This document shows positions 1-19,402 of a DNA stretch of 64,000 nt, piece by piece. The translations under genes were made by a program, and so were the position numbers. How positions within the stretch are numbered: the first letter of the stretch is position 1; the number at the start of each line of letters is the position of its first letter. The stretch comes from a virus (lineage: Duplodnaviria > Caudoviricetes). The notes beneath the pieces are model-generated. The model was not told where the DNA came from, did not search any database, and saw nothing but the letters and a program-made list of their open reading frames with translations. The stretch lies in the IMG/VR virus record IMGVR_UViG_3300046786_000304, positions 64,001 to 128,000 of that record, one strand, 5' to 3'.

Positions 1-965
1 TCTTTGTTCATTTTATACCAGCGAAGCGTGTTCTTCAATGCTTCACGTAGTTCATATTTAGGTTTCCAGCCTAGAGCATTAATCTTTTCAGAACTTAATA
101 ATCTAACTGAAATCATAAATGCTTTGTTGTTAACGTACTCAATTGGATTGTCATTGTTGTCTAACTCTTTAAGCATGGCCAACACTTCATTGACTGTATA
201 ACCTTTGCCATAACTTACATTGTATACGTCGTGTTTGTCAACATTTTCTGCTACGAATACAATGCCTTCGGCCATGTCTTCAACGTGTAACAAGTCGCGA
301 ACGTCATTGCCATCTCCCCATACAGGAATAGGATTTAATCCGTCTGCTACTTTGCGAATACTTGCTGGCGTAACGTGGCATTTTTCATAGTCAAACTTAT
401 CATTAGGGCCAAACGCATTACTTGGACGAATAATAATACATTGCATTGGATTATGAATTTGATTACTGAAAAAGTCACATAAATTTTCACTGTAACGTTT
501 CATTCCGCCTACAGCTTTGTATACTGGAATTAAAGGTGTACCATTAGTGTCAATGCCTTCATGGCAAAATTCAGTGCCCATGTCTGGATATACAGTATTT
601 GAACTAATAAACACAAATTTCTTAACGCCATTGCGCCAGCTGTGTTCCATTAAGTTTGTATTCATTTCAATGTTAGGCGTTACGTGTAGCAATGGATTAA
701 ACTTAGTGTCTAAAGCATTACTAGTATTAGCCGCACAGTGAATAACAACATCAATGTCTTTGCTTACCTTTTCGCAGAATTCTGCTGTACGCAAATCACC
801 ATGGTGATTCTCTACTGTTTCCCATCCGTAAAAGTCTTTACGTAATGTTCTGCTATAAGTTGTACTGCGTACATTCTTATAACCTTTTTCAAATAATGTT
901 CTTAATATGTGGCTACCAATAAATCCCGATGCGCCTGTAACTAAAATTCTGTCTGTTTTTTGCAT
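1..965 (-). CDS. NAD-dependent epimerase/dehydratase, GDP-L-fucose synthase-like (truncated at window edge)
   Basis: Manually translated: MQKTDRILVTGASGFIGSH (Rossmann GxxGxxG), FVFISSNTVYP, IIRPSNAFGPND, VWGDGNDVRDLLHV. No stop before base 1, so it is absent from the ORF track. Confidence 0.85.
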   Translation of the reverse strand, partial: MQKTDRILVTGASGFIGSHILRTLFEKGYKNVRSTTYSRTLRKDFYGWETVENHHGDLRTAEFCEKVSKDIDVVIHCAANTSNALDTKFNPLLHVTPNIEMNTNLMEHSWRNGVKKFVFISSNTVYPDMGTEFCHEGIDTNGTPLIPVYKAVGGMKRYSENLCDFFSNQIHNPMQCIIIRPSNAFGPNDKFDYEKCHVTPASIRKVADGLNPIPVWGDGNDVRDLLHVEDMAEGIVFVAENVDKHDVYNVSYGKGYTVNEVLAMLKELDNNDNPIEYVNNKAFMISVRLLSSEKINALGWKPKYELREALKNTLRWYKMNK

Positions 966-966
966 T

Positions 967-1944
967 TTATTTTCCGATATAAGTTTCGATGGTCTTCTTG
1001 ATACCATCTCTTAGTGTAGTTCTTGGTAACATGTCATATTTACGTTGCTTATCCGCACTTAGACAGCGAACCGGGTCACCATTCATTTTTGTTTCATCCC
1101 AAACAATTTTCTTTTCTTCGCCACTGATTTCTTTATACACATCAATGATTGTTTCAATTGTTTCTTTAATACTAACTGCTGTGCCGCAACCAAAGTTAAC
1201 AATATCTTTGACTTCTTTAGTAACTGCGTCAATGCTGGCCTGTGCAACATCATCACCAAACACAAAGTCTCTGCGAGCACTGCCATTGCCCCAACATGTA
1301 ATGCTATCTCCGGGAACGTTCTTTAGTTTCCAAATGTTTGAACTAATAACTGTAGCATCTTCAGCAAAGTTATCATTGATACCATAAATGTTACTTGGAC
1401 GAATAACTGTCCAATTATCCCAGCCGTATTGTACTGTTAGAGATTCTAAAGTTGCTTCGCCCATGCGCTTGGTCCAACCTGGATACCAGTCATTCTTACT
1501 AGGTGTTGTTTTCCAAACATCATCTTCGTTCATTAGTTCAGCTGGCTGATAAACGCCCACGCTACTCAAGTATACAAACCAATCTACCTTGGCGTCAAAT
1601 GCTGCCTTAATCATGTTAGTGTTAAACATTAACATAGGGAACAAATAATCGCAGGGCTGTTTACTGCTACGTGCTGGACTGCCTTTGACTCCGGCAATGT
1701 GTAATACATAATTAATGTTCTTGCTTTTGAACAATTCTTCACAATTATGCAGATAAGTTAAATCACAGTTAACAAATTCTACGACGCTAGGATACTTGTC
1801 ACAGACTTCTTTAAGCTTGGGACTTTGTCTAATATCCACAGCATAAACTTTGCTGGCGCCTTGTTGTACGCTTTTTTCAACTGCTGGTACACCCACTAAT
1901 CCACTTGCACCTGTTATTAATACTACTTTGTTTTCAAATTTCAT
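967..1944 (-). CDS. NAD-dependent epimerase/dehydratase (extended SDR, GDP-fucose synthase-like)
   Basis: VLITGASGLVG, YLSSVGVY, YPGWTKRMGE, RPSNIYG, WGNGSARRDFVF. Start placed at the ATG overlapping the upstream TGA (ATGA). Confidence 0.85.
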   Translation of the reverse strand: MKFENKVVLITGASGLVGVPAVEKSVQQGASKVYAVDIRQSPKLKEVCDKYPSVVEFVNCDLTYLHNCEELFKSKNINYVLHIAGVKGSPARSSKQPCDYLFPMLMFNTNMIKAAFDAKVDWFVYLSSVGVYQPAELMNEDDVWKTTPSKNDWYPGWTKRMGEATLESLTVQYGWDNWTVIRPSNIYGINDNFAEDATVISSNIWKLKNVPGDSITCWGNGSARRDFVFGDDVAQASIDAVTKEVKDIVNFGCGTAVSIKETIETIIDVYKEISGEEKKIVWDETKMNGDPVRCLSADKQRKYDMLPRTTLRDGIKKTIETYIGK

Positions 1945-3386
1945 TTTAAATACCACTTTCTTATATCGTTAAATGTTTTATTAAATGGGTTATACTTACC
2001 AAAAGTCTTTGCATGATTTTGATTGTGTATTAACACATCCGTTAGCTGATAATATATATCATGTATTTCACTTAGTGGTAATACTGATAATCTATAAATC
2101 TCTGAGTTGATTAATTCAAATCTATTTCTATAATCTGTACATTCGTCATATGATTCGTCGATTAAAGGGCTAAATGTTTTAAATCCCAAATCCCGTAATG
2201 TTTTTAATGTAAACGGATTCCCTATCACTATAAATGGCTGTAAATTAATTATAGGGTGATGAAACGTTTTTTCGCTGATAAACGGAAAAGCCCCTCCGCC
2301 ATGTTCGAATGAAGTTTCACTTACAATATTAATATACGATTCAGCGAACAATGCTTTATTGTTGTTATTAAGATTAAAGCTGTGTTTCTGGTCCACAGGT
2401 AAATGCGCTGTATCAATTTCCATTGGAATATTTTCGACAATAGAATCAACAATCGATTCTAAATCATCGGGTTCTCCGGTAAAATGCGAGATTGTATTAT
2501 AGATTCTATGCTTATTAGTGTAATCATGTAATGCTACAAAACTAAAAATGCTGTCATTTAATAGTTTATATTTGAACGCCATGTACGCACTTAGCCAACG
2601 ATGTGGTCTGTGCATATTCCTATTCATACAAATAAACCTTTTACTGCGAATGTGATCGATATCTAAATCTTCTGGTTTAACATAATCAGACTTGTATCCC
2701 AATGATCCTACCCTGGGGTATTCGTGGAACTTGTCAGCTAATTGATTTAAAACAATGTATCCATTTGTTATTTTTATTTTACTGTCGGAATACATATCAT
2801 AATGACTGTCGAATGTATTGCCTCCGATTATAATAATATTTTCCCCAGAAATGCCGTGTTTGTTAAAATATTTTTCTATTTCTAGCAAGTTTTCAGAATG
2901 TTCCACTGGATCATGTATTACATTTAATACTAATTTGATATTGCCAGTTTGTAAACCCAATAATACTCTAGGATCTAATGTGTCAATGAATTCATAATTA
3001 TAATCAATTCCGTTCAATTTAATTGAATAATTACCGTAAATTAAATTTAAAGTAAAACAAATCTCAACAGGATAAAGGTATATGTCACCGTTATATACTA
3101 TTTCGTCAACTGTTACTATATTGTCAATGCCATAGTGAAGTTTGTAATAATTATAAAAGTTTTTATGAGAAATATGTGCCCGCCACGTAGACGATTCGTT
3201 CTGCGATTGTAATTCATCGACAATATTGCTTTGAAACGCAAACTCATTATCCTTAAGCTTGTCTAAGATATACTCATTTACCTGTGGCAATGAACCGTTT
3301 AAAAGAAACTCCTTGCCTTGATAATTGACATAGGAGTTACTGTAAACTAATTTTATATTGCGATTATAATTGTTGAATAAACTCAT
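1941..3386 (-). CDS. GT10 (fucosyltransferase)-like putative glycosyltransferase, paralog 1
   Basis: RFICMNR..HR and YINIVSET..FISEKT..PIINLQPFIVIG..GFKTF..IDESYD. This resembles the GT10 FENS..YITEK..VPIVLG nucleotide-sugar binding motif. Confidence 0.5.
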   Translation of the reverse strand: MSLFNNYNRNIKLVYSNSYVNYQGKEFLLNGSLPQVNEYILDKLKDNEFAFQSNIVDELQSQNESSTWRAHISHKNFYNYYKLHYGIDNIVTVDEIVYNGDIYLYPVEICFTLNLIYGNYSIKLNGIDYNYEFIDTLDPRVLLGLQTGNIKLVLNVIHDPVEHSENLLEIEKYFNKHGISGENIIIIGGNTFDSHYDMYSDSKIKITNGYIVLNQLADKFHEYPRVGSLGYKSDYVKPEDLDIDHIRSKRFICMNRNMHRPHRWLSAYMAFKYKLLNDSIFSFVALHDYTNKHRIYNTISHFTGEPDDLESIVDSIVENIPMEIDTAHLPVDQKHSFNLNNNNKALFAESYINIVSETSFEHGGGAFPFISEKTFHHPIINLQPFIVIGNPFTLKTLRDLGFKTFSPLIDESYDECTDYRNRFELINSEIYRLSVLPLSEIHDIYYQLTDVLIHNQNHAKTFGKYNPFNKTFNDIRKWYLK

Positions 3387-4773
3387 AAGATATCTTGTAT
3401 GGGTTAGTATCTTTAAAAGACGCAAAATGATTTCTATTATAGATTAAAATATCTTTCATCGAATAGTATAACTCATGCAATTCATTATGACTTAATGCGT
3501 TTAATTTTAATATTTCTTTTTGAATCATTTGCATTCTTGTCAAATAATCGGGTTCTAAATCATAACTCTCATCTATAAATGGACTAAATGTTTTAAAGCC
3601 CAAATTCTTTAATTGCTGTAGAGAACCAAAATCCCCGATCATTATAAATGGCTGTAAGTTAATAATAGGCCTGTATGTTTTTTCAGAGAAAAACGGACTA
3701 TTATCTATAGGGCCAAAGAAACTTGTTTCTGATATAATGTGAAAATATGTATCAGTGTACCATTCTTTTTTATTGTTGTCAGTTACAAAGCCTCTTTTTT
3801 CGTCAACTGTTAAATGATTGGTATCTATTTCATAGGGCATTATAGACATTAAGTCATTGAGCTCTTCATCGGTGATACGCGAACCCAACAATGATGTTAT
3901 GCTATCCCTGATATTATCAGGGCTGTCAGGAATATTAACAAAACTAAAGATGCTATTGTTTAATAGTCCATTCTTCAATGCCATATATGCTATATAATAT
4001 CTATGCGAACGCATGGATCTATTAAAGCAAAGAAACTTTTTTGGCCGCATTTTAGTAATGTCTAAATCACTGTCACGTACAATATCTGAAGTATATCCCA
4101 TTGATGTAGGTCTAGGGAAATCATCCATACAACGAGCTTGCTGTTGTAACGCTAGATTACCATAAGTGAATTTAGTTAGACTATCAGGAAAGTCTTTGGT
4201 ATGATTTAAAAACTTATTGCCAAATATAAACACTAAATTAGATTCACTGACTCCAAGTTTCCGCAATCGCAATTCTAATTCTCGTATACTAGGTGCGTAA
4301 TGGCAAGGATCTTGTATGTTACAAATAACTATTTTAATTCTATCTGCTTTTAAATGTTCAATGATTGGTTCTATTAAATCTTCAATGGAATACTCAACAG
4401 TATTGCCGTCTAAATCAATTGTTGTTTTGTCATTTAATGCGTTGATAGAAGTGGCTATTTCAATTGGAAATATATAAGTTGTATCTTTATCATTGACGTC
4501 TATGTCATATATAGGTATTATATTCTTTTCACCTATATTGTTCATAAAGTAATAATGAAAATTACCTAAGTTAAATGTTAAATTCCATCCAACTGAAGAA
4601 CTATTGCGTACTTCTTCGATACAACTATGCGGGTTTAATTCATTGATGTCAACGATATATTTTTTGTCAATGTGATTCATTACAACCTGCGGAATGCCGT
4701 TGCTAAAATAAATCTTTTCGCCATTACTCTTAGAATAAATGTGCGAGTATACTGCTTTTAAAATACGACCCAT
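3364..4773 (-). CDS. GT10-like putative glycosyltransferase, paralog 2
   Basis: KKFLCFNRSMRSHR; YFHIISET..FFSEKTYRPIINLQPFIMIG..GFKTFSPFIDESYD. Confidence 0.5.
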   Translation of the reverse strand: MGRILKAVYSHIYSKSNGEKIYFSNGIPQVVMNHIDKKYIVDINELNPHSCIEEVRNSSSVGWNLTFNLGNFHYYFMNNIGEKNIIPIYDIDVNDKDTTYIFPIEIATSINALNDKTTIDLDGNTVEYSIEDLIEPIIEHLKADRIKIVICNIQDPCHYAPSIRELELRLRKLGVSESNLVFIFGNKFLNHTKDFPDSLTKFTYGNLALQQQARCMDDFPRPTSMGYTSDIVRDSDLDITKMRPKKFLCFNRSMRSHRYYIAYMALKNGLLNNSIFSFVNIPDSPDNIRDSITSLLGSRITDEELNDLMSIMPYEIDTNHLTVDEKRGFVTDNNKKEWYTDTYFHIISETSFFGPIDNSPFFSEKTYRPIINLQPFIMIGDFGSLQQLKNLGFKTFSPFIDESYDLEPDYLTRMQMIQKEILKLNALSHNELHELYYSMKDILIYNRNHFASFKDTNPYKISYEFIQQL

Positions 4774-5387
4774 TTGCCTGTTCCATAATGTGGGAATTTA
4801 GATTTGTATTCATACCAGATAACATCTTCGGGAATATCACGCTTGTGATTCCATGTTGCTACTGTGGGAGTATTAGTTGATACTGCGTTATCTTCTACAA
4901 TGAAATATAAAGGCAAATTAAAGTTTCTAGCGTACTTGTGTACTTCATAAAAGATGCCGCTTTCAAAACTCATGTCCCCAATAAAACACCAAACTTTTTC
5001 ATCGCTGCCGCTGTCTTTAATTGATTGTGCAACACCTAAAGCAATAGATAAAGTTCCGCCAACAATAGCACTGGCGTAAAATTTATTGTCTAAATTACAT
5101 ATAGTAATGCTCTTACCAGCTAGGATATCTTGTTCAATAATTGCGGGATCAATGCCTTTGAGCAGTGCATGATAATGACTACGCCAAGTAGAAAATACCC
5201 AGTCTGTTGTTTTAATTCTTTTGAAGATTTCAATTAGCTGTTCTTCATTATTGTTTGACAAGTGTACAGGGCCGCGGATTTTAGCATTTTCCCAGTGGTT
5301 TACAATTTTATCTTCGAATGCTATTAAATCTTCTTTGGTCAAGCTAATTGGCCTTACAACTTCATATTTGTCAATATTTTTAATCAT
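4758..5387 (-). CDS. Thiamine-diphosphate enzyme, pyruvate dehydrogenase E1 alpha-like (short)
   Basis: RGPVHLS, WVFSTWRSHYHAL, ASAIVGG, and the ThDP motif FIGDMSFESG...IVEDN. Confidence 0.85.
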   Translation of the reverse strand: MIKNIDKYEVVRPISLTKEDLIAFEDKIVNHWENAKIRGPVHLSNNNEEQLIEIFKRIKTTDWVFSTWRSHYHALLKGIDPAIIEQDILAGKSITICNLDNKFYASAIVGGTLSIALGVAQSIKDSGSDEKVWCFIGDMSFESGIFYEVHKYARNFNLPLYFIVEDNAVSTNTPTVATWNHKRDIPEDVIWYEYKSKFPHYGTGKWVVF

Positions 5388-5395
5388 TTTTTTCC

Positions 5396-5956
5396 TTAGG
5401 GTTTAACAAGATACCAAAGTGTACCTGTAATTTTTGCTTTCTGATTGAACATTTCTTCCAATCTATGTACATTCTGATTTACGTCAGGAAATTCTATAGG
5501 GAGACCAGTGGTGTACGGAGTGTAATCGTGGCCTGCTACAATTCCTCCTGATTTAACAAAAGGAAGGAAATGTTCTATAATAGACCAGTCGCTGGGATTA
5601 TAATGTCCTGCATCAATGAAGAATACGTCTATTGGTCTTGGATCAGTGTAGCCAGCGTGTTCAGGAGTTAGTCCTCTAATTGGTATTATGTTTTTATATT
5701 CTGCTGTGTTCTTTTGAAACTCTTCCCATGTATTACACGGGTTTCCTTCGTGATCTGTTAATTCTTCGTAAAAAATATCAAAACAATATATAGTAACAGA
5801 AGGGTCTGCGCTCATTGCCCATGCTACAGAACTTTTGCCACAAAAACTTCCTACTTCCACTATAACGCCGACTTCAGGCACTGTTTTAGCCAATGATTCG
5901 ATTACTTGAAGTTCGTTTTCAAACATCCATCCTTTAATATCTAGTTTATATGGCAT
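5396..5956 (-). CDS. Class I SAM-dependent methyltransferase (Methyltransf_24-like)
   Basis: VEVGSFCGKS, DVFFIDAGH, VKSGGIVAGHDY. Confidence 0.85.
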   Translation of the reverse strand: MPYKLDIKGWMFENELQVIESLAKTVPEVGVIVEVGSFCGKSSVAWAMSADPSVTIYCFDIFYEELTDHEGNPCNTWEEFQKNTAEYKNIIPIRGLTPEHAGYTDPRPIDVFFIDAGHYNPSDWSIIEHFLPFVKSGGIVAGHDYTPYTTGLPIEFPDVNQNVHRLEEMFNQKAKITGTLWYLVKP

Positions 5957-5966
5957 ATTATTTTTC

Positions 5967-10256: not shown

Positions 10257-11694
10257 TTTCCTTATATACCCCGGTCTCAGCAAAAGTAATTCCAGACTGT
10301 TCTACTAACTTGACAACTTCATATTTTTTATTAAGTTCTATGCTTTCATACCAGTCGGCAATTTCTGGAAATGTATTAACTATGTTTTTGTTTCTTCTAG
10401 CATCATACTGTGAATAGAAACTTTTGAAGTCATGGAATAATGCTGTCTTATCATGTGTTGTAGATACGTGTCCAGTTTGTACAACTTCAAGATAATCAAT
10501 TAATCGTTTAATGCTGGCTTTTTCTCCAGCTTCTAAATACTGACTATGCTCGTGTTTGTTATACCAAGCAGATAGTTTTGCGTGTACTTCGTCTTTGAGA
10601 TCGTTGGGTAGCGTAACTGGACTCATGTATGCGGGCCAGCGTAGAATATTTAAATCCAAATAAGGTCTATTGTTGCCATATTTTTGTTTAAGTTCCAACA
10701 TATCGTCCATGAACTCTGTGATACTAAACAGGCACAGGTTAGATATAGTCATCATGATTGTGACATTTCTAAACTTAGCATTTTCGATAAAGTTAACTAG
10801 ATTACTGCGCCATACTTTATAGTCCATACCGTCACGTAAATACTCTGCGTGTAAGCCAAAGCTTTCGTTGCTAGTAAACAAATCAAACTCTTTAACTGGC
10901 AATGTCTTAGTTACTTCAATTAATCGTTCCAATGCTCGTGGACTTGAGCCTAGGTTACTGTTAACTGCAAAGCGCATATCCAAGTATTCATTCTTTTCTG
11001 TGATGATATCAATAAAGCGCCAAAAGTTTTGACTAACTGTACACTCACCGCCAGTGATGCGTAGTTCTTGCAAGCTCTTAGACAAGTCGGGCCACCATTC
11101 AAAGAAAGCCTCTACATAAGGATTGTCGTCTAAATGACGTCCATATGCTGTACTCCAAGCACCATCAGTTTGATATGCGCCACCTCCGCCGCCTTCGGCA
11201 ACAAAGTTTTGATAAGGACCATTCTTGGCAATATCATAACTCCATGTTGTACTGTAACCTGCGTTACAGTAACTACAAGCAAAGTTACATTGTCTATCAA
11301 AGCTAATTTCTAATGTTTTAAGATTAACATCATCAGCCCAGTTCATTGACTGAATCTTTTTAATATCTTCTGCGCTGTATATAATACTTTTATTAATGCG
11401 ATCGCTGATGTTGTTTCTACCAATGCCTTCTACTTTCCAGCAATAACCGCACTCTGCCGGCTTTTTACCTTCCAGCATCATTTTACGCATACGCTTTTTA
11501 TGATCAGTGTTATGCAAACCGCTGGGGTTGTAACTGATTTCACTAACGTCAATTGGATGAGGCAAAGGTAAGTGACAGCTACCGGTATAACCAGACCCTA
11601 AAAAGATACTGGCATTATACCACTTAGCCGCACAAAAGCTGGGACTAATTGAATTGAGATTTTCATCTCTCCATTTAATTAAGTCATCAGACAT
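10249..11694 (-). CDS. Radical SAM protein with N-terminal twitch-like Cys cluster
   Basis: CNFACSYC triad, RITGGEC, N-terminal FCAAKW..SCH..ECGYCW. Confidence 0.9.
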   Translation of the reverse strand: MSDDLIKWRDENLNSISPSFCAAKWYNASIFLGSGYTGSCHLPLPHPIDVSEISYNPSGLHNTDHKKRMRKMMLEGKKPAECGYCWKVEGIGRNNISDRINKSIIYSAEDIKKIQSMNWADDVNLKTLEISFDRQCNFACSYCNAGYSTTWSYDIAKNGPYQNFVAEGGGGGAYQTDGAWSTAYGRHLDDNPYVEAFFEWWPDLSKSLQELRITGGECTVSQNFWRFIDIITEKNEYLDMRFAVNSNLGSSPRALERLIEVTKTLPVKEFDLFTSNESFGLHAEYLRDGMDYKVWRSNLVNFIENAKFRNVTIMMTISNLCLFSITEFMDDMLELKQKYGNNRPYLDLNILRWPAYMSPVTLPNDLKDEVHAKLSAWYNKHEHSQYLEAGEKASIKRLIDYLEVVQTGHVSTTHDKTALFHDFKSFYSQYDARRNKNIVNTFPEIADWYESIELNKKYEVVKLVEQSGITFAETGVYKEND

Positions 11695-13264
11695 CTTTGT
11701 TAACTACCTTTTGTTTCATTGCTTTACAAATGTTATAAAATTCTGTGTACTCTGGATATACTTCTAAAAAGTTTGTACCATAGCGACGATCCAAGTCATT
11801 GACAAAGTCATAGAACTTAGCACGATTTAATGTAAAGTCTTTGTTACCTTCAAAATCATTCTTTGAGTTGTAAGCAATGTTCAAACATACACGTTTGAAT
11901 TTTTCAAGCTCAAACTCTTCAAACGCATGATGCATCTTCCAAGTCTTAGTCTGTGTTGTATGATCCGCCATATAGTTAATACTTGGCAACAAATACTCTT
12001 GGATAAGATCTTTACTGGCCCACTGTGCGTCCAAGAATGTTGGATTACGCAAGTAAGGCAAGTCAATGCCATTGATACTAGGATGACTTGTAGTCTTTTT
12101 ACTTCTATCTGTATATGACTCTCCGGGATAGGCAAAGTTAAAGCCTGTGTCCTTTTCCCACATGTCAGCAACAACTGGGTTAGGATTATATTTCTTTCTA
12201 AGTTCTAGTTGCCATTCAAACAATTTTTGTATACTGGAAATACTTAGAATGTTAAATGTAACCATCGTAGTAATTCTAATATTACCCATGGCCATAATCT
12301 GTTCGTAACGCTTACAGAACTTTTCAAAGTCCAAGCCTGGACGCAGATATTCGGCACGTTCGCCCCAACCATCTACACTGGTAAAGATAGTTAACTTCTT
12401 AATGTAATTGCCGCGGCTTAGGATCTCAGCACGTTCAATGAACTTGTCCCATAACTTGTCAGGTACACCCATGTTCGTATTGATACTAAGTTCAAGTTCA
12501 GGATTTGGATTTTCAATGAACCAATCCATACTTCTATAAGTTTCTTTACTAAGCAAAGGCTCGCCGCCTGTGATACGGAATACATGTAAGTGTTTGTAAG
12601 CTTCTGGCCACCACTTCCAAAATGCGTCAATGTAAGGATTGAATTCGTTGTTCTTATAACTTAGACTGTCTAAGTCCTTTTGCCAACCTTGTGCCCATAG
12701 AGTATGGTCTGTATTTTCTAATAGCTTAACAGGACCGTTTTGTTTTAGTTCCTCAACCCATTTACTGCTATACTCAGGACCGCAGTAAACGCATTTAAAG
12801 TTACATACGTTGCTAAAGTCTACTTCCAAATAACTTGGGTAAAAGTCTTGACTAGGATCACTGGCTTGAATCTCGTCATGCTTTTCCAATGCCCATGGCT
12901 CTAAACTCTTGTAAAATCTATCACTGGGACTTTTGTTATCTTCTACACGCCAGCAGTAGTCGCATTCTTTGGGACGCTGGCCCTCCATCATTTCTCTTCT
13001 TGCTTTTCTTAATATGCCGGTGTTAAACAATGCGCCAGGATTACGTTGAATTTCCTCTAATGGAATCTTATGTGGCACCGGGTGGTGACAACTGTGTGTC
13101 ATACCAGTACCCAAATGCATGGTAACTTGTGTAAATTTAGCAAGGCAAAATCCAGGACCTGTACTATCTAATAATTCTTTTGTTTTATCGATATTCGGTC
13201 CAGTACGGGCTACTTTTTTATCGTAGCCGATATCCCAGTTAATATCGCTGAGTTTCTTTTTCAT
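11687..13264 (-). CDS. Radical SAM protein with N-terminal twitch-like Cys cluster (paralog)
   Basis: CNFKCVYC, RITGGEPLL, FCLAKF..SCHHP..ECDYCW. Confidence 0.9.
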   Translation of the reverse strand: MKKKLSDINWDIGYDKKVARTGPNIDKTKELLDSTGPGFCLAKFTQVTMHLGTGMTHSCHHPVPHKIPLEEIQRNPGALFNTGILRKARREMMEGQRPKECDYCWRVEDNKSPSDRFYKSLEPWALEKHDEIQASDPSQDFYPSYLEVDFSNVCNFKCVYCGPEYSSKWVEELKQNGPVKLLENTDHTLWAQGWQKDLDSLSYKNNEFNPYIDAFWKWWPEAYKHLHVFRITGGEPLLSKETYRSMDWFIENPNPELELSINTNMGVPDKLWDKFIERAEILSRGNYIKKLTIFTSVDGWGERAEYLRPGLDFEKFCKRYEQIMAMGNIRITTMVTFNILSISSIQKLFEWQLELRKKYNPNPVVADMWEKDTGFNFAYPGESYTDRSKKTTSHPSINGIDLPYLRNPTFLDAQWASKDLIQEYLLPSINYMADHTTQTKTWKMHHAFEEFELEKFKRVCLNIAYNSKNDFEGNKDFTLNRAKFYDFVNDLDRRYGTNFLEVYPEYTEFYNICKAMKQKVVNKDV

Positions 13265-13273
13265 TTTTTGCCT

Positions 13274-14245
13274 TTAATTTATGCTGTTATCTACTTGGCT
13301 CTCTTTAACTAGAGCGCCTAACCTGGGAGGGTTAATAAAACTTTCTTTAAACATGCGACTGCCATTAAAATCTAATTCTGCAATCTCTAAATTTAAATTT
13401 GTGCGTAGTTCTTGACCAAACTTGTAAATTTCTTTTTTCAATTTCTCTGGATCATAGTTCCATCCAGTGGCATTACATCTTCCGCCTTCTCCCTCGAACT
13501 GCGGTTTAACACTATTTTCCCAGAACTGATCATGCCAGTCAAAATCTCTACAAGCTGTAAAATCAAAACTATCTTTAGCCAAGTTAGTTAGATATGCGCC
13601 TAGTCTAGTTCCAAACATTGCCCAATGTCCGTTCTCTACATCAGCACCTACACTTGACCATACCAAGAAACGTTTATAGTTACGCTCATGAACTTGTTCT
13701 TTAAGACGACGCGGATCCACTGTTACACCGCCACTGAGTAACAGTTTAACGCCTTCGCGGAATCCAGCTCTGTATGCTTGGTAAGCACTGGCATTATTGT
13801 GTACATCACAGTAGATATTATTCATTTGGAAGTAATAGATATCCCAACAGAAATCAACTTTGGCTTTTGGATCATCTGCGTTTTCATGTGTACGCATTTG
13901 TTCGACTACATGCTTGGGCCACATCTTAATACCGCCATTGCCGTAGACTAATCCATTGATAACATTCTTGCCGGCCCAACTAACAATATCATGTTTGCCT
14001 ATCTTGCTCATGTCTAATTCTAAACTAAAGAATTCATCACGAACAATGTTGTCGGCATCGATGGTAATAAAGCGATCTGTTTCTGCTACTCTGGCTGCTT
14101 CTTTGTGTGCGTTATCGAAACCTTTAACGCCATGAACACGTTTAGCCCATGGTGCTTTTTCTAATAGGTTTGCATAATTCTTATCTGCGTTTGGTTCGTC
14201 GTAGCTTAAAAATACGATATCAAAACTTGTAATAGGTACTGACAT
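13274..14245 (-). CDS. Putative GT-A fold glycosyltransferase
   Basis: DIVFLSYDE N-terminus, RVHGVKG..AHKEAA, FITIDADN (DxD). Confidence 0.6.
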   Translation of the reverse strand: MSVPITSFDIVFLSYDEPNADKNYANLLEKAPWAKRVHGVKGFDNAHKEAARVAETDRFITIDADNIVRDEFFSLELDMSKIGKHDIVSWAGKNVINGLVYGNGGIKMWPKHVVEQMRTHENADDPKAKVDFCWDIYYFQMNNIYCDVHNNASAYQAYRAGFREGVKLLLSGGVTVDPRRLKEQVHERNYKRFLVWSSVGADVENGHWAMFGTRLGAYLTNLAKDSFDFTACRDFDWHDQFWENSVKPQFEGEGGRCNATGWNYDPEKLKKEIYKFGQELRTNLNLEIAELDFNGSRMFKESFINPPRLGALVKESQVDNSIN

Positions 14246-15185
14246 TTGCGTCCTCAATATGTAAATGGTGATAATTCGAAATTATCTTAACTGGTGTAGC
14301 GGCTTTTAATTTTAACTCTACTAAATTAAAATTATCTAATTCATTGGTATTTAAAGTGACTGTGTCTAAAATCTGGCTAGGATCGTTGCTGTTATACATA
14401 TAAAAGGTTATCTTGTTGTCCAGATTAAAATTTTTAGTTTCAGACATTACGCTTTGAATTTGTAGTTTACTTCCAATTTGTTTATATACCAACGTTGGTT
14501 TAAATTTTGTAGATGCCACTGGAATAAAATACGGATCTTTATCCACACTGATTTTAAAATTATGATTATAGTGTAAAAAACGTAAGTTGTCAAATGAATT
14601 TGGATCATTGGGCAACCATTTACAAGAAAAAACTTGGTCCTGGTTGTAAAATAAATCTTTGACGTTTAACCTTAGTGTATCGTAAAGTCTGCTTGGTTCT
14701 TGTTTATCTATACAATAAATTTCCATGCTTTCAGGCATCATTGATAAATGATACTCAGTGGTCTTTTCTTTAGTGTATTCTTGTTTGAAATTTTCATATA
14801 TGAAATTGGCATTGATTTTCTTTGTTACAAAATCGCAATGTAAATGAATAAAATTCTTGTCATCGCTTTCGCCGTAGACATAATCAAATTCCCATCGTTT
14901 ATGATCTCTATGCTTGTACAGAACTCTAGTGTCTGTATCAGCATCGTATCTTATTTTTAACTTATGTAATGGAAGTTTATTATAAAAGATTTCACGAAGT
15001 AAATCATTTTCATCTAATTCTAAATTTGCCCGACGAGGGTTTGTTAGTTCGACTTCGTAGGGTGCAATGCCTAATACTTGATAAGTTAATTTGTCATACT
15101 CAACATAAAATTTTCTATTCTTACTTTCTTTCTTTTTAAGAATAGTTTTTTGTATGTCAAATTCGCTATCATCGATGTTAAGCAT
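14220..15185 (-). CDS. Hypothetical protein in glycan operon
   Basis: 321-aa ORF coupled to neighbours; no motif recognised. Confidence 0.6.
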   Translation of the reverse strand: MLNIDDSEFDIQKTILKKKESKNRKFYVEYDKLTYQVLGIAPYEVELTNPRRANLELDENDLLREIFYNKLPLHKLKIRYDADTDTRVLYKHRDHKRWEFDYVYGESDDKNFIHLHCDFVTKKINANFIYENFKQEYTKEKTTEYHLSMMPESMEIYCIDKQEPSRLYDTLRLNVKDLFYNQDQVFSCKWLPNDPNSFDNLRFLHYNHNFKISVDKDPYFIPVASTKFKPTLVYKQIGSKLQIQSVMSETKNFNLDNKITFYMYNSNDPSQILDTVTLNTNELDNFNLVELKLKAATPVKIISNYHHLHIEDANVSTYYKF

Positions 15186-16025
15186 TTAAATGAATTTTTT
15201 TCTTAGATTAGTTAAAGTGTCGTCAGTTAACCAAGCACTTGTGTTATATTTAACTAAGCCTAATTGAATATAATTTTCAATTTTTATATCGCCTTGGTCG
15301 TTTACCCAATAAGATAAAAACTCAGTCCATGGTTTTTTTGACCATTGATCATTAACAAAGCTATTTTCTCTAATACTTAAATCAATTAAATTTACAAAGT
15401 CAAATTTAGTTATTTTAAGTCCTAATATTTTGTACATCAATGACATTAACCACTGTGGCCATAGGTATTTAGGAAATGGCGGCATTGAATTGTTTTCTTT
15501 ATCAGCAAAGAAATCAATAATTTGATTTTGATTGTATGTAGAAGCAATCAGTACTGCCATGCCGAATACATAATCACAGCCCTTGTCTTTGTTGAAATAT
15601 ATTGCGTCTAATATAGATCCTTCGCCAAAACTTTTTTGCTCAACTGAACCTTCAGTGTATAAAGAATAATCTAGCAATTCTCCATTGAAACTGGATCTAG
15701 TTTTGGGTATAACTATACTATTCATACCTCTAAGATTTTCCCAAACATCAACGTTAAAATTAGTTAAAATTTGATCAGGATTAAATGCAATAGTTTTTGT
15801 ATAAGGGCTGGCCAATAAAGAATGGAAATATCTTGCTGATAAAATCTCATCGGGTTCCATATAAATTTCTTGATCAATATACAGCAAATATTTTTTTAAG
15901 TTTTTTTCATGGGCAATAATACTGATTGGTCTTTCCTTGTCAAACAGTCGTATACTCTTAACCAGAAGTTCAACTCTGGTTAAGTTTTTCATATTACAAT
16001 TAACTATTAAGTAACCTTCAGTCAT
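15186..16025 (-). CDS. Putative degenerate GT-A (GT8-like) protein
   Basis: TEGYLIV..LVKSIRL..PISII, SPYTKTIAFNPD. Paralogous in layout to the 16018-16914 product; DxD replaced by NPD. Confidence 0.4.
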   Translation of the reverse strand: MTEGYLIVNCNMKNLTRVELLVKSIRLFDKERPISIIAHEKNLKKYLLYIDQEIYMEPDEILSARYFHSLLASPYTKTIAFNPDQILTNFNVDVWENLRGMNSIVIPKTRSSFNGELLDYSLYTEGSVEQKSFGEGSILDAIYFNKDKGCDYVFGMAVLIASTYNQNQIIDFFADKENNSMPPFPKYLWPQWLMSLMYKILGLKITKFDFVNLIDLSIRENSFVNDQWSKKPWTEFLSYWVNDQGDIKIENYIQLGLVKYNTSAWLTDDTLTNLRKKFI

Positions 16026-16914
16026 ATATCATTGTTTTAATTTTATCATAATGTCTCAGAATGGCCATTTTATTCATGACGTGGACATTTTCATTTTTAA
16101 CTCTACTAGCAATACTTTTCCACAATTCTTTTGGATCAGGACAAACTAAGACCATGTCATTGATTTCTTTGAACTCAGCAATGTCGTCGATTTGTTCGCT
16201 GAATCGCATAACTTTACCAGGTAGTTCATGTATTAAATTTCCCTGTCTATGACCATTTAAAATGTGTACAGCTATACTTACAGCATAGTCCGTTCTAAAC
16301 AATACTCCAGGAAACTTATACAACCATTTATAGTAGTTATAGTTTTCCTTGACATGTTCCCATACTCCAAAGAATAACTTAGCAAGTTCGCTGTCGCTTC
16401 TCCAGTATACAGCAGTCGACCACCACATGTCAATACCATCTGGATGAAGTTTTTGTTCCCATATACGTGGTTTATAATTTCGAACACTTAATGCCTGTTT
16501 GTACATAGCAACTTCACTGTCTGTATCAAAAATAGCATCTAATGTATCATTGCCAATCAAATAGTCAACGTCGATCATCAATGTTTTGTTGTAAGGGCTT
16601 TTGTTGAAAATACTGTGCTTGTTTTTATTATTAAATTGCGTAGTAAATTCATTCCATGGACTATCTCGATGTGTTCGAGTATTTCGTTCGTGTGTCACAT
16701 TATCAATGATAATATGATCAAAAGTTTCTGCTGCCAGTGCAGGAGTTAGTTCTGCTGTTAACGCATCGAACGTTGGCTGATCTGTTAATAACGTTACATG
16801 ATTGTTAGTCATGTGTAACTTAACACATCTGGCCGCTACCAATGCTAATTTTTCGTAATCGATTTTGCCATTGTTATAAGCAATCAGCAATATACCAGAA
16901 TCAAACTTACTCAT
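16018..16914 (-). CDS. Putative GT-A (GT8-like) nucleotide-diphospho-sugar transferase
   Basis: GILLIAYNN..YEKLAL, SPYNKTLMIDVDY (DxD), RTDYAVSIA, VHVMNK. Confidence 0.55.
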   Translation of the reverse strand: MSKFDSGILLIAYNNGKIDYEKLALVAARCVKLHMTNNHVTLLTDQPTFDALTAELTPALAAETFDHIIIDNVTHERNTRTHRDSPWNEFTTQFNNKNKHSIFNKSPYNKTLMIDVDYLIGNDTLDAIFDTDSEVAMYKQALSVRNYKPRIWEQKLHPDGIDMWWSTAVYWRSDSELAKLFFGVWEHVKENYNYYKWLYKFPGVLFRTDYAVSIAVHILNGHRQGNLIHELPGKVMRFSEQIDDIAEFKEINDMVLVCPDPKELWKSIASRVKNENVHVMNKMAILRHYDKIKTMIYD

Positions 16915-17260
16915 TTAGACCAACCAACCCTTTAGTGTCACGTTGTTTTTTGAGTTTTTCGTTTTCCACATAATATTCATTTAATGCTTCTGTATAAGCA
17001 CTGAAAAGCTTTTCGTGGAATTCTTTAATGTTAGTAACTAGTACCGGGTTTTCGTTGTCGTCTAAAAATATATAACGTTCAACATTCATGTCTATTAATT
17101 GTTTAACAAAATTAATTAATTCTAAGTTTGTTGTAAAAAGAGAACTCATGTAACCAATAGTTAACATGGTATTCATGCGTTGTTTGAGATTTAGCTTTTG
17201 GTTGTTCAGCGTTAACCGATAGTTACTGAACTCCAAAGCAGCCTTGAGTTTATCGTCCAT
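16907..17260 (-). CDS. Hypothetical protein, possible tail fibre assembly factor
   Basis: Conserved-looking small ORF (LDDNENPVL..EF). The ATG at 17260 has a GGAG upstream. Confidence 0.45.
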   Translation of the reverse strand: MDDKLKAALEFSNYRLTLNNQKLNLKQRMNTMLTIGYMSSLFTTNLELINFVKQLIDMNVERYIFLDDNENPVLVTNIKEFHEKLFSAYTEALNEYYVENEKLKKQRDTKGLVGLNE

Positions 17261-17289
17261 CCAGAGCTCCATTATGTGCTATTTTAATT

Positions 17290-17297
17290 TATTTATA
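17290..17297 (-). promoter_or_regulatory. T4-type late promoter TATAAATA heading the glycan operon
   Basis: Exact TATAAATA in the intergenic gap, and a gp55-like sigma factor is encoded in this window. Confidence 0.75.
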
Positions 17298-19368: not shown

Positions 19369-19391
19369 GTATCGAAATTCCTTTAATATAA

Positions 19392-19399: not shown

Positions 19400-19402
19400 T
19401 AA

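What the first reader, a model, noticed from the sequence alone, without database searches (positions are those of the whole stretch)
1..17297. 17 kb late-promoter-driven glycan synthesis and tailoring operon next to tail genes
Seen in the sequence: about 17 co-directional genes with overlapping or abutting starts and stops, headed by an exact TATAAATA box and lying directly downstream of tail structural genes. The genes cover sugar-nucleotide synthesis, about six glycosyltransferase-like proteins, and methyl, acyl, ThDP and radical tailoring enzymes. Established: TATAAATA is the gp55-dependent late promoter of T4. Inference: late timing points to decoration of the virion (or host surface) with a complex, chemically modified glycan rather than DNA hypermodification. 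This is an O-antigen-scale pathway in a phage.
Basis: partly seen in the sequence, partly recalled or inferred. Interest (0 to 1): 0.8.

Follow-up and report, generated by a model that had tools for sequence, protein, structure and literature searches.

The report
Phage fibre-linked glycan-building gene block
A large uncultured freshwater phage carries, directly behind its tail-fibre genes and under its own late-type promoter, a block of sugar-making, sugar-transferring and radical-chemistry enzymes with no membrane parts. It most likely puts an unusual sugar coat on the phage's own fibres, and hundreds of related phages share this untested system.

Summary
Window 1-17297 carries 18 coupled minus-strand genes behind an intergenic TATAAATA and just downstream of baseplate and fibre genes.

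Fold and profile tests confirm six glycosyltransferase-like proteins:
- three GT-B;
- one GT-A;
- two GT8/glycogenin-like, one with a degenerate DxD.

The other genes are:
- two SDR sugar-nucleotide enzymes;
- an RmlC-like epimerase;
- half of a split ThDP enzyme;
- a methyltransferase;
- three SGNH-like proteins;
- two twitch radical SAM enzymes.

The block does not end at the window edge. It runs about 36.6 kb (about 39 genes).

The late-promoter reading is supported by sequence. Ten of 13 genomic TATAAATA lie in the 4% non-coding DNA, several before structural genes, and a gp55 homologue is present. However, a perfect sigma70 promoter lies inside the block, and many relatives head the module with sigma70-like promoters.

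In 68 of 73 related contigs the module follows the same fibre genes. No membrane assembly proteins are encoded.

Virion (fibre) glycosylation is the best reading (about 0.5) but is unproven.

Similar clusters in pelagimyophages and cyanophages are published as "LPS genes". Notes from this scan describe a similar arrangement in other genomes.

The parts
17290..17297 (-). TATAAATA box, T4-type late-promoter-like, at the head of the cluster
   Evidence: An exact match in a 39-nt intergenic gap. Genome-wide, 10 of 13 copies are non-coding, all point at a same-strand gene and 11 lie within 33 nt of its start.
16907..17272 (-). First gene of the module (121 aa, unknown family). The true start is probably the second ATG at 17260, which follows a GGAG.
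   Evidence: It is present directly before the GT8-like gene in 80 of 80 related loci and in Ralstonia phage RsoM2USA.
16018..16914 (-). GT8/glycogenin-like GT-A glycosyltransferase with an intact DxD (DVD)
   Evidence: The profile of alignment A3 matches glycogenin-1 in the PDB at E 4e-5, across the DxD region. The motif was checked.
15186..16025 (-). Paralogue of the GT8-like gene with a degenerate DxD (NPD); possibly non-catalytic
   Evidence: hhalign gives probability 99.9 to the neighbouring gene. The motif was checked.
14220..15185 (-). 321-aa protein of a rare, unplaced family
   Evidence: Only 26 representative clusters among 1.84 billion proteins. No Pfam, PHROG, NCBIfam or PDB match.
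14565..14593 (-). Perfect sigma70-type promoter (TTGACA-17-TATAAT) on the sense strand, about 310 nt before the GT-A gene
   Evidence: The genome holds 21 perfect copies, about half of them in non-coding DNA and many clustered in three plus-strand regions of short ORFs (my reading: early regions; not checked).
13274..14257 (-). GT-A fold glycosyltransferase (family B, DAD motif). Three more paralogues lie beyond the window edge.
   Evidence: AF2 model with pLDDT 88. All Foldseek PDB hits are GT-A enzymes. VIA Z is 9.9 to B4GALNT1 and 9.0-9.2 to SunS/ThuS. AFDB matches are named GT2-like. More than 7,645 homologues were found.
11687..13264 (-). Twitch-domain radical SAM enzyme with CxxxCxxC
   Evidence: NCBIfam NF033640 scores 303.6 bits against a cut-off of 170. 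The motif was found.
10249..11694 (-). Twitch-domain radical SAM enzyme, paralogue of the previous gene
   Evidence: NF033640 scores 283.7 bits. It is 34% identical to its neighbour.
9594..10283 (-). DUF6071 / SGNH (GDSL)-like protein; candidate O-acyl transferase or esterase
   Evidence: Pfam DUF6071 at 4.6e-9 and Lipase_GDSL at 6.9e-6.
8710..9597 (-). SGNH/DUF6071-like paralogue
   Evidence: hhalign probability 100 to the gene at 9594-10283.
7931..8713 (-). SGNH/DUF6071-like paralogue
   Evidence: hhalign probability 100 to the gene at 9594-10283.
6502..7938 (-). GT-B glycosyltransferase, family A paralogue 3
   Evidence: BLASTP to its paralogues. It keeps the conserved Arg, ET, TEK and GFKTF motifs.
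5967..6536 (-). RmlC-like NDP-4-keto-6-deoxyhexose 3,5-epimerase (cupin)
   Evidence: Pfam dTDP_sugar_isom at 3.3e-33. TIGR01221 scores 112 bits, below its cut-off of 155.75.
5396..5956 (-). Class I SAM methyltransferase (Methyltransf_24)
   Evidence: Pfam at 9e-14.
4758..5387 (-). ThDP enzyme, PP-binding half (PDH E1 alpha-like). Its Pyr-binding partner lies beyond the window edge at genome 61229-61771.
   Evidence: Pfam E1_dh at 1e-12 and PDH_E1 alpha models. The partner matches Transket_pyr. The gene is 74% conserved in 67 of 78 loci.
3364..4773 (-). GT-B glycosyltransferase, family A paralogue 2
   Evidence: 38% identical to the gene at 1941-3425. Motifs are kept.
1941..3425 (-). GT-B glycosyltransferase, family A paralogue 1, with a GT10-like C-terminal motif
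   Evidence: AF2 model with pLDDT 90.6. Foldseek PDB hits are OtsA, SdgB and GtfA at E 4e-6. VIA Z is 10.4 to T4 BGT and human FUT9, and 9.7 to a bacterial alpha1,3-FucT.
967..1956 (-). Extended SDR sugar-nucleotide epimerase/reductase; its best model is GDP-L-fucose synthase-like
   Evidence: Pfam Epimerase at 1.4e-36. NF047922 scores 127 bits, below cut-off.
1..1007 (-). Extended SDR sugar-nucleotide enzyme that runs off the window (full gene at genome 63973-65007)
   Evidence: Pfam Epimerase at 1.5e-46.
17312..19975 (-). Three fibre-like or virion genes directly upstream, of 365, 319 and 190 aa. The 365-aa protein carries a long (Tyr-Gly)n tract.
   Evidence: PHROG tail-fibre families match the 319-aa protein. 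The tract was seen and is kept in relatives of 84-86% identity. The positional equivalent of the 190-aa gene is a virion protein by MS in RsoM2USA (PMC8504454).
20019..32742 (-). A 2910-aa structural protein and baseplate wedge genes, at the start of the same minus-strand run
   Evidence: PHROG baseplate wedge at E 7e-266. The giant protein resembles RsoM2USA ORF361 at E 1.6e-9, which is a virion protein by MS (PMC8504454).
47873..48733 (+). Homologue of T4 gp55, the late sigma factor that reads TATAAATA
   Evidence: A search with T4 gp55 on the phage's own genome gives E 2.1e-8 and 40% identity over residues 43-117.

Best explanation
The stretch is the promoter-proximal half of a phage-encoded glycosylation system whose proteins all appear soluble, wired to the tail-fibre genes. 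It has three parts.

1. A conserved head module. It comprises a 121-aa protein, two GT8/glycogenin-like proteins, a 321-aa unknown, a GT-A transferase and two twitch radical SAM enzymes. It follows the fibre genes under its own promoter.

2. A conserved sugar cassette. A 4,6-dehydratase-like SDR, an RmlC-like 3,5-epimerase, a split PDH-E1-like ThDP enzyme and two Fcl-like SDRs would turn a host NDP-hexose into a branched 6-deoxy-L-hexose. Three fucosyltransferase-like GT-B enzymes would then transfer it.

3. Tailoring enzymes. These are an O-methyltransferase and SGNH-type acyl enzymes. Beyond the window edge lie a NodU-like carbamoyltransferase, three more GT-A paralogues and about 12 more radical SAM enzymes.

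Inferred mechanism: the glycan is built step by step in the cytoplasm, directly on virion proteins. The most likely acceptors are the fibre proteins encoded immediately upstream, modified before or during tail assembly. This would change the surface chemistry of the host-recognition apparatus.

Shown here: gene content, folds, motifs, promoter boxes and synteny. Inferred: donor sugars, the acceptor and the timing.
For: - Six GT-like proteins are confirmed by model, fold search or profile search, and their catalytic motifs are kept.
- The sugar-modifying enzymes form a coherent set.
- No protein in the block has a membrane-spanning segment. The whole 233-kb record has only one polytopic membrane protein, elsewhere.
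- The head of the block carries a TATAAATA of the same kind that precedes tail sheath, baseplate hub and a head-decoration-like gene. A gp55 homologue is present.
- Among 80 IMG/VR loci anchored on the GT8-like gene, 80 carry the 121-aa gene. Of 73 loci with enough upstream DNA, 68 have the fibre-like or giant structural genes within five genes upstream on the same strand. Of 64 with enough downstream DNA, 63 have the GT-A gene downstream.
- The cultured jumbo phage RsoM2USA has the same small module next to proteins found in its virions by MS (PMC8504454).
- The jumbo phage XacN1, which that paper uses as a structural homologue, was reported to have at least two virion glycoproteins and its own GTs (PMC5852040).
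- Phage virion glycosylation by phage-encoded GTs has been demonstrated in mycobacteriophages (Freeman et al. 2023, cited in PMC12619734).
Against: - No expression or glycoprotein data exist for this phage.
- A perfect sigma70 promoter lies inside the block, and 28 of 69 relatives head the module with a sigma70-like promoter. Late timing is therefore not universal.
- O-antigen glycosyltransferases are usually peripheral proteins without membrane segments, so the lack of membrane proteins does not exclude use of the host's lipid-linked machinery.
- The GT-B fold scores equally well against the T4 DNA glucosyltransferases.
- A conserved small peptide gene and about 14 radical SAM enzymes could instead point to a peptide or small-molecule product.
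- XacN1 itself has no detectable homologue of the GT families tested here.
Confidence: 0.5

Rival explanations
1. Host-envelope remodelling, which is the published default reading. The enzymes make unusual NDP-sugars and add them to the host's lipid-linked O-antigen or capsule intermediates, and the host's own initiation, flippase, polymerase and ligase finish the job. The altered surface would block superinfection, or stop progeny from adsorbing to debris, and would co-vary with fibre specificity.
For: - Comparable clusters are read this way in cyanophages and pelagimyophages (PMC1079782, PMC7824862, PMC7029224).
- The cyanophage S-SM2 sugar cluster shares the ThDP enzyme.
- Sigma70-like promoters inside the block and at the module head in relatives would allow early expression.
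- Bacterial O-antigen GTs also lack membrane segments (established knowledge).
Against: - No initiating phosphoglycosyl transferase, flippase, polymerase, ligase or Gtr-type protein is encoded in the block, and no other polytopic membrane protein was found in the record.
- The head of the block carries a late-type box in this phage.
- The nearly invariant placement straight after the fibre genes has no obvious reason under this model beyond co-variation.
- A lytic jumbo phage would gain little from late surface change.
Confidence: 0.2
2. A glycosylated peptide or small-molecule product. The distal cassette and the radical SAM array would build and tailor a glycoconjugate on the conserved 32-47-aa peptide that ends in KRDPF(I/V)Y, or on a free metabolite. 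The logic would resemble RiPPs or mycofactocin.
For: - A 46-aa ORF follows the second TATAAATA, at genome 61073-61213.
- Its C-terminal motif is kept in small same-strand ORFs in 42 of 78 loci. Synonymous codon variation at the invariant residues shows selection at the protein level.
- Ninety-seven protein clusters of this peptide exist in metagenomes.
- There are 14 CxxxCxxC proteins, several with twitch or SPASM domains.
- Among the best structural matches of the GT-A family, the peptide glycosyltransferases SunS and ThuS have the highest sequence identity (16-18%).
Against: - No recognisable RiPP recognition element, leader peptidase or exporter was found.
- The peptide's N-terminal part is not conserved.
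- The peptide travels with the sugar cassette, not with the head module or the radical SAM array.
- Nothing links it chemically to the enzymes.
- It lies outside the finding's coordinates.
Confidence: 0.13
3. DNA hypermodification. The GT-B and GT-A enzymes would attach and extend glycans on modified bases of the phage DNA, as T4 alpha- and beta-glucosyltransferases and the recently described viral DNA glycan systems do.
For: - T4 BGT (Z 10.4) and AGT (Z 9.6) are among the best structural matches of the GT-B family.
- Viral GTs that put several sugars on DNA are described (bioRxiv 10.1101/2023.12.21.572611; PMC13326640).
- Radical SAM enzymes occur in some base-hypermodification pathways (established knowledge).
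Against: - Those Z scores are tied with fucosyltransferases and many other GT-B enzymes.
- The Pfam scans of the block show no base hydroxymethylase, TET-like oxygenase, kinase or DNA-binding enzyme.
- According to an unchecked note of this scan, the genome has a separate dpdA operon with its own sugar genes about 48 kb before the window's start.
- The block is fixed to the fibre genes and starts at a late-type box.
Confidence: 0.07

Closest known systems
Host-recognition / 'LPS' gene clusters of T4-like aquatic myophages (pelagimyophage HRC, PMC7029224; cyanophage P-SSM2 and S-SM2 clusters, PMC1079782, PMC3037559, PMC7824862)
   Same: - Large runs of glycosyltransferase and sugar-nucleotide genes, with radical SAM cassettes, sit beside tail-fibre genes in T4-related phages.
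- S-SM2 shares the ThDP enzyme (40% identity).
- The function is untested in all of them.
   Different: - This phage is a jumbo relative of Atu_ph07, PA5oct and RsoM2USA.
- The block is larger, about 36.6 kb with 14 radical SAM proteins.
- Its GT families have no Pfam match.
- The published reading is host O-chain modification, whereas the synteny, promoter and lack of membrane parts found here favour virion decoration.
Autonomous glycosylation machinery of giant viruses (chlorovirus PBCV-1 capsid glycans; mimivirus fibril glycans)
   Same: - Virus-encoded soluble GTs, sugar-nucleotide enzymes and methyltransferases build unusual glycans on virion proteins in the cytoplasm without the host's membrane pathway (established knowledge; cited in PMC5852040).
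- A PBCV-1 capsid-glycosylating GT (2p73), a putative chlorovirus NY2A GT (3oy2) and mimivirus R699 appear among the structural matches.
   Different: - Those are eukaryotic viruses with no sequence relationship to this phage.
- Here radical SAM, ThDP and carbamoyl chemistry are added.
- The genes are locked to tail-fibre genes.
Mycobacteriophage virion glycosylation (Freeman et al. 2023, PMC10527164, as cited in PMC12619734)
   Same: Phage-encoded GTs glycosylate the phage's own structural proteins.
   Different: - Those systems have one to a few GT genes in siphophages of Actinobacteria, and they modify the C-termini of the capsid and tail-tube proteins.
- This is a pathway of more than 35 genes that makes its own sugars, in a Gram-negative-type jumbo myophage.
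T4 alpha- and beta-glucosyltransferases (DNA glucosylation)
   Same: GT-B fold with similar Z scores, in a T4-related phage.
   Different: - The T4 genes are single early genes acting on hydroxymethylcytosine DNA.
- Here there are three paralogues with a fucosyltransferase-like motif inside a sugar-synthesis cassette behind the fibre genes.
Two-carbon branched-chain deoxysugar pathways that use PDH-E1-like ThDP pairs (for example AviB1/AviB2 of avilamycin; recalled from knowledge, not tested)
   Same: Separate E1-alpha-like and E1-beta-like ThDP halves sit next to NDP-hexose 4,6-dehydratase-like, 3,5-epimerase and reductase genes.
   Different: - The halves are truncated (209 and 180 aa).
- All scores are below the curated cut-offs.
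- No activity data exist.
- The context is a phage, not an antibiotic cluster.

Membership tests
T4-type late promoter (gp55-dependent TATAAATA) | An exact TATAAATA in non-coding DNA a short distance upstream of the gene start, without a -35 element | tested here: met
   The box at 17290-17297(-) lies 17 nt before the first ATG and 29 nt before the second ATG, which follows a GGAG. No TTGACA lies upstream.
T4-type late promoter (gp55-dependent TATAAATA) | The same box marks structural (late) genes elsewhere in the genome and is avoided in coding DNA | tested here: met
   There are 13 copies, 10 of them in the 4% non-coding DNA. Copies precede tail sheath, baseplate hub and a head-decoration-like gene. 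Two copies have a TTGACA at -35 and look like sigma70 promoters.
T4-type late promoter (gp55-dependent TATAAATA) | The phage encodes the gp55 late sigma factor | tested here: met
   T4 gp55 matches window 48395-48613, within the ORF at 47873-48733, at E 2.1e-8.
T4-type late promoter (gp55-dependent TATAAATA) | Transcription starts there late in infection | not testable with these tools
   This is an uncultured phage. The only relevant attempt was the run search (see Tried and rejected).
GT-B glycosyltransferases, GT10 (alpha1,3-fucosyltransferase)-like | Two-Rossmann GT-B fold | tested here: met
   Model pLDDT is 90.6. All top Foldseek and VIA matches are GT-B enzymes, with Z 10.4 to FUT9 and T4 BGT. 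AFDB matches carry GT1/GT4 names.
GT-B glycosyltransferases, GT10 (alpha1,3-fucosyltransferase)-like | The C-terminal donor-binding motif of GT10 (acidic residue, then (S/T)-E-K) and a conserved Arg | tested here: inconclusive
   R276, E370 and E385-K386 are invariant in 32 sequences and kept in all three paralogues. The equivalence to the GT10 motif rests on my recollection of that motif, not on a residue-level superposition.
GT-B glycosyltransferases, GT10 (alpha1,3-fucosyltransferase)-like | A sequence match to the family model (Pfam PF00852) | tested here: not met
   None of the 32 members matches any Pfam GT family at E up to 1. The PDB profile search was empty. A feature search gave only a weak GT10 lead at 0.78.
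GT-A glycosyltransferases (GT2-like) | GT-A fold with a DxD motif after the fourth strand | tested here: met
   Model pLDDT is 88. VIA Z is 9.9, with rmsd 3.0 over 139 residues to B4GALNT1. DAD, DSD or DAD is kept in all four paralogues. No nucleotidyltransferase-type Gly-rich motif is evident in the N-terminal consensus of the family (by eye, motif recalled from knowledge).
GT-A glycosyltransferases (GT2-like) | A sequence match to Pfam GT2 models | tested here: not met
   No member of alignment A2 matches a GT family at E up to 1.
GT8 (glycogenin / LgtC-like) | A profile match covering the nucleotide-binding N-terminal half and the DxD | tested here: met
   The A3 profile matches glycogenin-1 at E 4.1e-5, query positions 13-112, including LDxD against MDAD.
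GT8 (glycogenin / LgtC-like) | DxD retained in each paralogue | tested here: inconclusive
   The gene at 16018-16914 has DVD. The gene at 15186-16025 has NPD, so it is degenerate.
Wzx/Wzy- or ABC-dependent O-antigen / capsule pathway | Own initiating phosphoglycosyl transferase, flippase or ABC exporter, polymerase and ligase (polytopic membrane proteins) | tested here: not met
   A hydropathy scan found no protein with two or more membrane-like segments between genome 34 and 84 kb. The whole record has one polytopic protein, at genome 9338-10528. The record is about 65% complete, so absence from the whole genome is not proven.
NCBIfam NF033640 (N_Twi_rSAM, twitch domain-containing radical SAM protein) | A score above the curated cut-off and an intact CxxxCxxC | tested here: met
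   Scores are 283.7 and 303.6 bits against a cut-off of 170. The motifs start at residues 136 and 154.
Branched-chain deoxysugar pathway with a PDH-E1-like ThDP pair | Separate PP- and Pyr-domain ThDP subunits together with 4,6-dehydratase-like, 3,5-epimerase and reductase genes | tested here: inconclusive
   All the components are present and co-conserved in 64-73 of 78 loci. Every NCBIfam score is below its cut-off, and no activity can be tested.
RiPP / mycofactocin-like peptide-derived products | A small precursor gene with a conserved core, next to radical SAM maturases | tested here: inconclusive
   A conserved small ORF under protein-level selection exists. No recognition element, peptidase or known precursor family was found, and the ORF travels with the sugar cassette.
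Phage DNA glucosylation systems | A base hydroxymethylase or oxygenase that creates the acceptor, linked to the GT | tested here: not met
   The Pfam scans of the block's proteins from genome 46956 to 83368 show no such enzyme. The rest of the genome was not scanned for it.

The most novel reading that the evidence does not exclude
The conserved sugar cassette and the radical SAM array do not decorate a large protein. Instead they build a radical-SAM-tailored glycoconjugate on the conserved 32-47-aa peptide ending in KRDPF(I/V)Y, which is encoded inside the cassette. The near-terminal tyrosine would be the attachment or cross-link site. This would be a phage-encoded glycosylated peptide product with RiPP- or mycofactocin-like logic, shared by hundreds of aquatic phages.

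A second unexcluded variant is that the glycogenin-like GT8 enzymes O-glycosylate tyrosines of the (Tyr-Gly)n tract in the fibre protein encoded just upstream.
Probability: 0.12. Interest if true: 0.9.

Novelty: new variant of a known kind. Interest (0 to 1): 0.62.

Why it matters
Phages are usually thought to leave their virions unglycosylated. The few proven cases use one or two transferases.

Here, one of the largest gene investments of a jumbo phage makes its own unusual sugars. It is fixed to the fibre genes in hundreds of environmental phages and in at least one cultured phage, RsoM2USA.

If the product coats the fibres, host recognition, defence evasion and particle stability in abundant aquatic phages would depend on phage-made glycans. 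The genes now annotated as 'LPS genes' in marine T4-like phages would need re-reading.

The block also holds sequence-orphan GT-A and GT-B families, a widespread twitch radical SAM family and a conserved small peptide. All lack a known substrate. The system is directly testable in RsoM2USA.

Tried and rejected
- Megablast of the 17.3 kb against 50,697 deposited phage records found no match.
- PHROGs gave nothing for ten unknown proteins. NCBIfam gave nothing for the unknowns or the small peptide.
- Sequence or profile searches of the PDB were empty for the GT-B family, the 321-aa family and a twitch radical SAM. They gave only chance hits for the GT-A family and the 139-aa family.
- Pfam scans of every member of alignments A1 and A2 hit no GT family.
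- hhalign among the cluster profiles did not link the 121-, 139-, 285- or 321-aa proteins to the GT or SGNH families.
- The GT-B family has no match in deposited phage records. The GT-A and GT8-like families match only RsoM2USA.
- A genome-contig scan with the ThDP half found only two short MAG contigs, probably binned phage DNA. No cellular pathway was available to borrow a function from.
- Expression: no RNA holder was listed for the stretch, and read laying was not used.
- Complex prediction was not used, because enzyme-substrate pairs are poor cases for it.
- One search was a mistyped reference and returned an error. One search failed on wrong coordinates and was repeated.
- I considered and dropped the idea that TATAAATA is a chance AT-rich word. 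It is in fact depleted overall but concentrated at gene starts.

Full report
**Context.** The window is bases 64001-128000 of a 233,464-bp IMG/VR virus record, estimated about 65% complete. By its portal protein, the phage is a distant relative of the jumbo myophages Phosso, Atu_ph07 and PA5oct (47-53% identity). It has T4-type baseplate, portal and SbcC-like genes. Earlier notes of this scan call it a freshwater phage.

**Observation.** Every gene of the finding lies on the minus strand.
- Eighteen ORFs run from window 17272 down to 3. Their junctions are overlaps of 4-62 nt, one exact abutment, or gaps of 8-10 nt.
- The exact TATAAATA at 17290-17297 sits in the 39-nt gap after a fibre-like gene.
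- Upstream on the same strand lie three fibre-like or virion genes, a 2910-aa protein and baseplate wedge genes.
- The block is cut by the window edge. Another 19 coupled genes follow, down to genome 44645, giving about 36.6 kb and about 39 genes. Further radical SAM genes reach genome 34885.

**Inventory inside the finding**, in order of transcription:
- a 121-aa unknown protein;
- two paralogous GT8-like proteins;
- a 321-aa protein of a rare family, with 26 representative clusters in 1.84 billion proteins;
- a GT-A protein;
- two twitch radical SAM enzymes, NF033640 at 284 and 304 bits against a cut-off of 170;
- three paralogues of a DUF6071/SGNH-like family;
- a GT-B protein;
- an RmlC-like epimerase;
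- a Methyltransf_24 methyltransferase;
- the PP-binding half of a PDH-E1-like ThDP enzyme;
- two more GT-B paralogues;
- two extended SDRs.

**Beyond the window edge** lie a third SDR, a highly conserved 139-aa protein, more SGNH-like paralogues, the Pyr-binding ThDP half, a NodU-like carbamoyltransferase, three more GT-A paralogues and the radical SAM array. In all there are 14 CxxxCxxC proteins.

**Are they glycosyltransferases?**
- *GT-B family.* The 494-aa family (alignment A1) gave a model with pLDDT 90.6.
  - Its Foldseek PDB matches are all GT-B enzymes: OtsA, SdgB and GtfA at E 4e-6.
  - An independent search of 48,161 chains gave T4 beta-glucosyltransferase and human FUT9 at Z 10.4, then other fucosyltransferases and T4 alpha-glucosyltransferase at Z 9.6-9.7.
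  - An invariant Arg and an E...(S/T)EK motif are kept in all three paralogues. From knowledge, this resembles the GT10 donor-binding motif.
- *GT-A family.* The 327-aa family (A2) gave a model with pLDDT 88.
  - It has only GT-A matches, with Z up to 9.9.
  - A DxD motif is kept in all four paralogues.
- *GT8-like family.* The 298/279-aa family (A3) matches glycogenin-1 by profile at E 4e-5, across the DxD. The second copy has NPD instead of DxD.
- *Count.* 'About six' is therefore right: six GT-like proteins, five of them with intact motifs.
- *Sequence orphans.* Neither A1 nor A2 matches any Pfam GT family. The GT-B family is absent from 50,697 deposited phage records.

**Promoters.**
- In the window TATAAATA is rarer than chance (3 found, 10 expected).
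- Of the 13 copies in the genome, 10 lie in the 4% non-coding DNA. All point at a same-strand gene, and 11 lie within 33 nt of its start.
- The genes they precede include tail sheath, baseplate hub and a head-decoration-like protein.
- Two copies have a TTGACA at -35 and look like sigma70 promoters.
- A gp55 homologue lies at window 47873-48733.
- A second TATAAATA lies inside the block at genome 61219, before the carbamoyltransferase.
- Against a purely late programme, a perfect TTGACA-17-TATAAT lies on the sense strand at 14565-14593. It is one of 21 perfect copies in the genome. About half of these lie in non-coding DNA, and many cluster in three plus-strand regions that I take to be early.
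- No terminator-like site was found on the minus strand in window 1-20000, which includes the gaps between the fibre genes and the block. Read-through from the fibre genes is therefore also likely.

**Relatives.**
- *Loci anchored on the GT-B family* (78 loci). A core cassette is co-conserved in 60-73 of them at 65-80% identity: twitch radical SAM, GT-B, RmlC-like, both ThDP halves and three SDRs. The 139-aa gene is found in 36.
- *Loci anchored on the GT8-like gene* (80 loci). The order is nearly fixed: giant protein, 190-aa, 319-aa and 365-aa fibre-like genes, the 121-aa gene, GT8-like, one or two further genes, GT-A, then radical SAM. After that the content varies.
  - All 80 loci have the 121-aa gene.
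  - 68 of 73 have fibre-like or giant genes within five genes upstream.
  - 63 of 64 have the GT-A gene downstream, and 51 of 64 have a radical SAM gene.
- *Module head.* It keeps a gap of mostly 40-80 nt. Of 69 distinct versions, 33 carry TAAATA (shuffles give a mean of 11, maximum 24). Twenty-eight carry a sigma70-like TTGAC-N16-18-TAnnnT (shuffles give a mean of 0.3). Fifty-four carry either. The module therefore always has its own promoter, but the type differs between lineages.
- *Cultured relatives.*
  - Ralstonia phage RsoM2USA has the head module next to homologues of the fibre-like and giant proteins. Its ORF361 and ORF356 were found in virions by MS (PMC8504454).
  - For the jumbo phage XacN1, at least two virion glycoproteins and phage GTs were reported (PMC5852040). 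XacN1 lacks detectable homologues of the families tested here.

**What is missing.**
- No protein in the block has a membrane-like segment. The whole record has one polytopic protein, elsewhere.
- No sugar-1-phosphate nucleotidyltransferase and no base-modifying enzyme was found in the block.
- Close homologues of the ThDP half in cellular genomes are limited to two short MAG contigs.

**Mechanism.** The enzymes fit one chemical story.
1. A host NDP-hexose is 4,6-dehydrated.
2. It is 3,5-epimerised.
3. The ThDP pair extends it at a keto carbon.
4. It is reduced to a branched 6-deoxy-L-sugar.
5. Fucosyltransferase-like GT-B enzymes transfer it onto a primer laid down by the GT8-like and GT-A enzymes.
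6. The glycan is then methylated, acylated, carbamoylated and edited by radical SAM enzymes.

This chemistry is inferred. All NCBIfam scores are below their cut-offs.

The acceptor is the open point.
- I favour virion fibre proteins (0.5), because of the fixed synteny, the module's own promoter with a late-type box here, and the absence of membrane proteins.
- Host-surface remodelling (0.2) remains possible, because O-antigen GTs also lack membrane segments and sigma70-type promoters occur.
- A peptide or small-molecule product (0.13) is raised by a newly noticed small gene (next section).
- DNA glycosylation (0.07) is the least likely.

**Small peptide.** A 46-aa ORF starts 5 nt after the second TATAAATA (genome 61073-61213, outside the window).
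- Its C-terminal motif, ending in KRDPF(I/V)Y plus 0-3 residues, recurs in small same-strand ORFs in 42 of 78 loci. Most lie just after the Pyr-binding ThDP half.
- The invariant residues use up to five synonymous codons, so selection acts on the protein.
- There are 97 metagenomic protein clusters of this peptide.
- It is unique in this genome and matches no NCBIfam family.
- It travels with the sugar cassette, not with the head module.

**Comparison and novelty.**
- Glycan-type genes with radical SAM cassettes next to tail fibres are described for pelagimyophages (PMC7029224). 'LPS' clusters are described for cyanophages (PMC1079782, PMC3037559, PMC7824862).
- A T4-like marine genome with 12 radical SAM genes was noted earlier (PMC5332604).
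- Notes of this scan describe a similar arrangement on other genomes. Look-alikes of the GT-A protein occur in 41 windows of 27 genomes. These notes are unchecked, but my IMG/VR analysis agrees with them.
- New here:
  - fold-level proof of three orphan GT families;
  - the two-module architecture;
  - the quantified fibre synteny;
  - the promoter analysis;
  - the absence of membrane proteins from the block;
  - the conserved peptide.
- I rate the finding a new variant of a known kind.

Noticed in passing
L005:15073-15213 (-) = genome 61073-61213, about 2.8 kb beyond the window's left edge: A conserved 46-aa ORF starts 5 nt after a second TATAAATA. Its C-terminal motif, ending in KRDPF(I/V)Y, is kept in small same-strand ORFs in 42 of 78 related loci. 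Synonymous codon variation shows protein-level selection. There are 97 metagenomic protein clusters and no known family.
   Followed up: partly
window 14565-14593 (-): A perfect TTGACA-17-TATAAT lies on the sense strand inside the 321-aa gene, about 310 nt before the GT-A gene. It is one of 21 perfect copies in the genome and is a possible internal early promoter for the rest of the block.
   Followed up: partly
window 17312-18409 (-), tract at about 17561-17716: The fibre-like protein just before the cluster has a long (Tyr-Gly)n tract. The tract is kept, with varying length, in three relatives of 84-86% identity and is absent from distant homologues. It lies next to glycogenin-like GT8 genes, and glycogenin glucosylates tyrosine.
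   Followed up: partly
window 47873-48733 (+): A 286-aa ORF contains a homologue of the T4 late sigma factor gp55 (E 2.1e-8).
   Followed up: yes
window 15186-16025 (-): The second GT8-like paralogue has NPD where the family has DxD. It may be a non-catalytic partner of its neighbour.
   Followed up: partly
genome 34885-56292 (L005 and L013), left of the window: Twelve further CxxxCxxC radical SAM genes in at least three paralogue groups, one with a SPASM domain, lie on both strands. Another radical SAM gene at genome 222140-223492 is also preceded by TATAAATA.
   Followed up: partly
L005:16625-17044 (-) = genome 62625-63044: A 139-aa protein of the sugar cassette is extremely conserved (mean column identity 74% over 17 loci) but has no family or PDB match.
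   Followed up: partly
window 2001-4000 and 14001-16000: G+C falls to 0.31 over two GT-B paralogues and over the GT8-like and 321-aa genes, against 0.35-0.40 around them. This fits a variable, exchanged region.
   Followed up: no
window 32743-32880 and 33479-33507: A G+C-rich hairpin followed by a T run lies after the 181-aa gene (32881-33426), just upstream of the baseplate wedge genes. A perfect sigma70-type promoter lies on the minus strand upstream of that gene.
   Followed up: no
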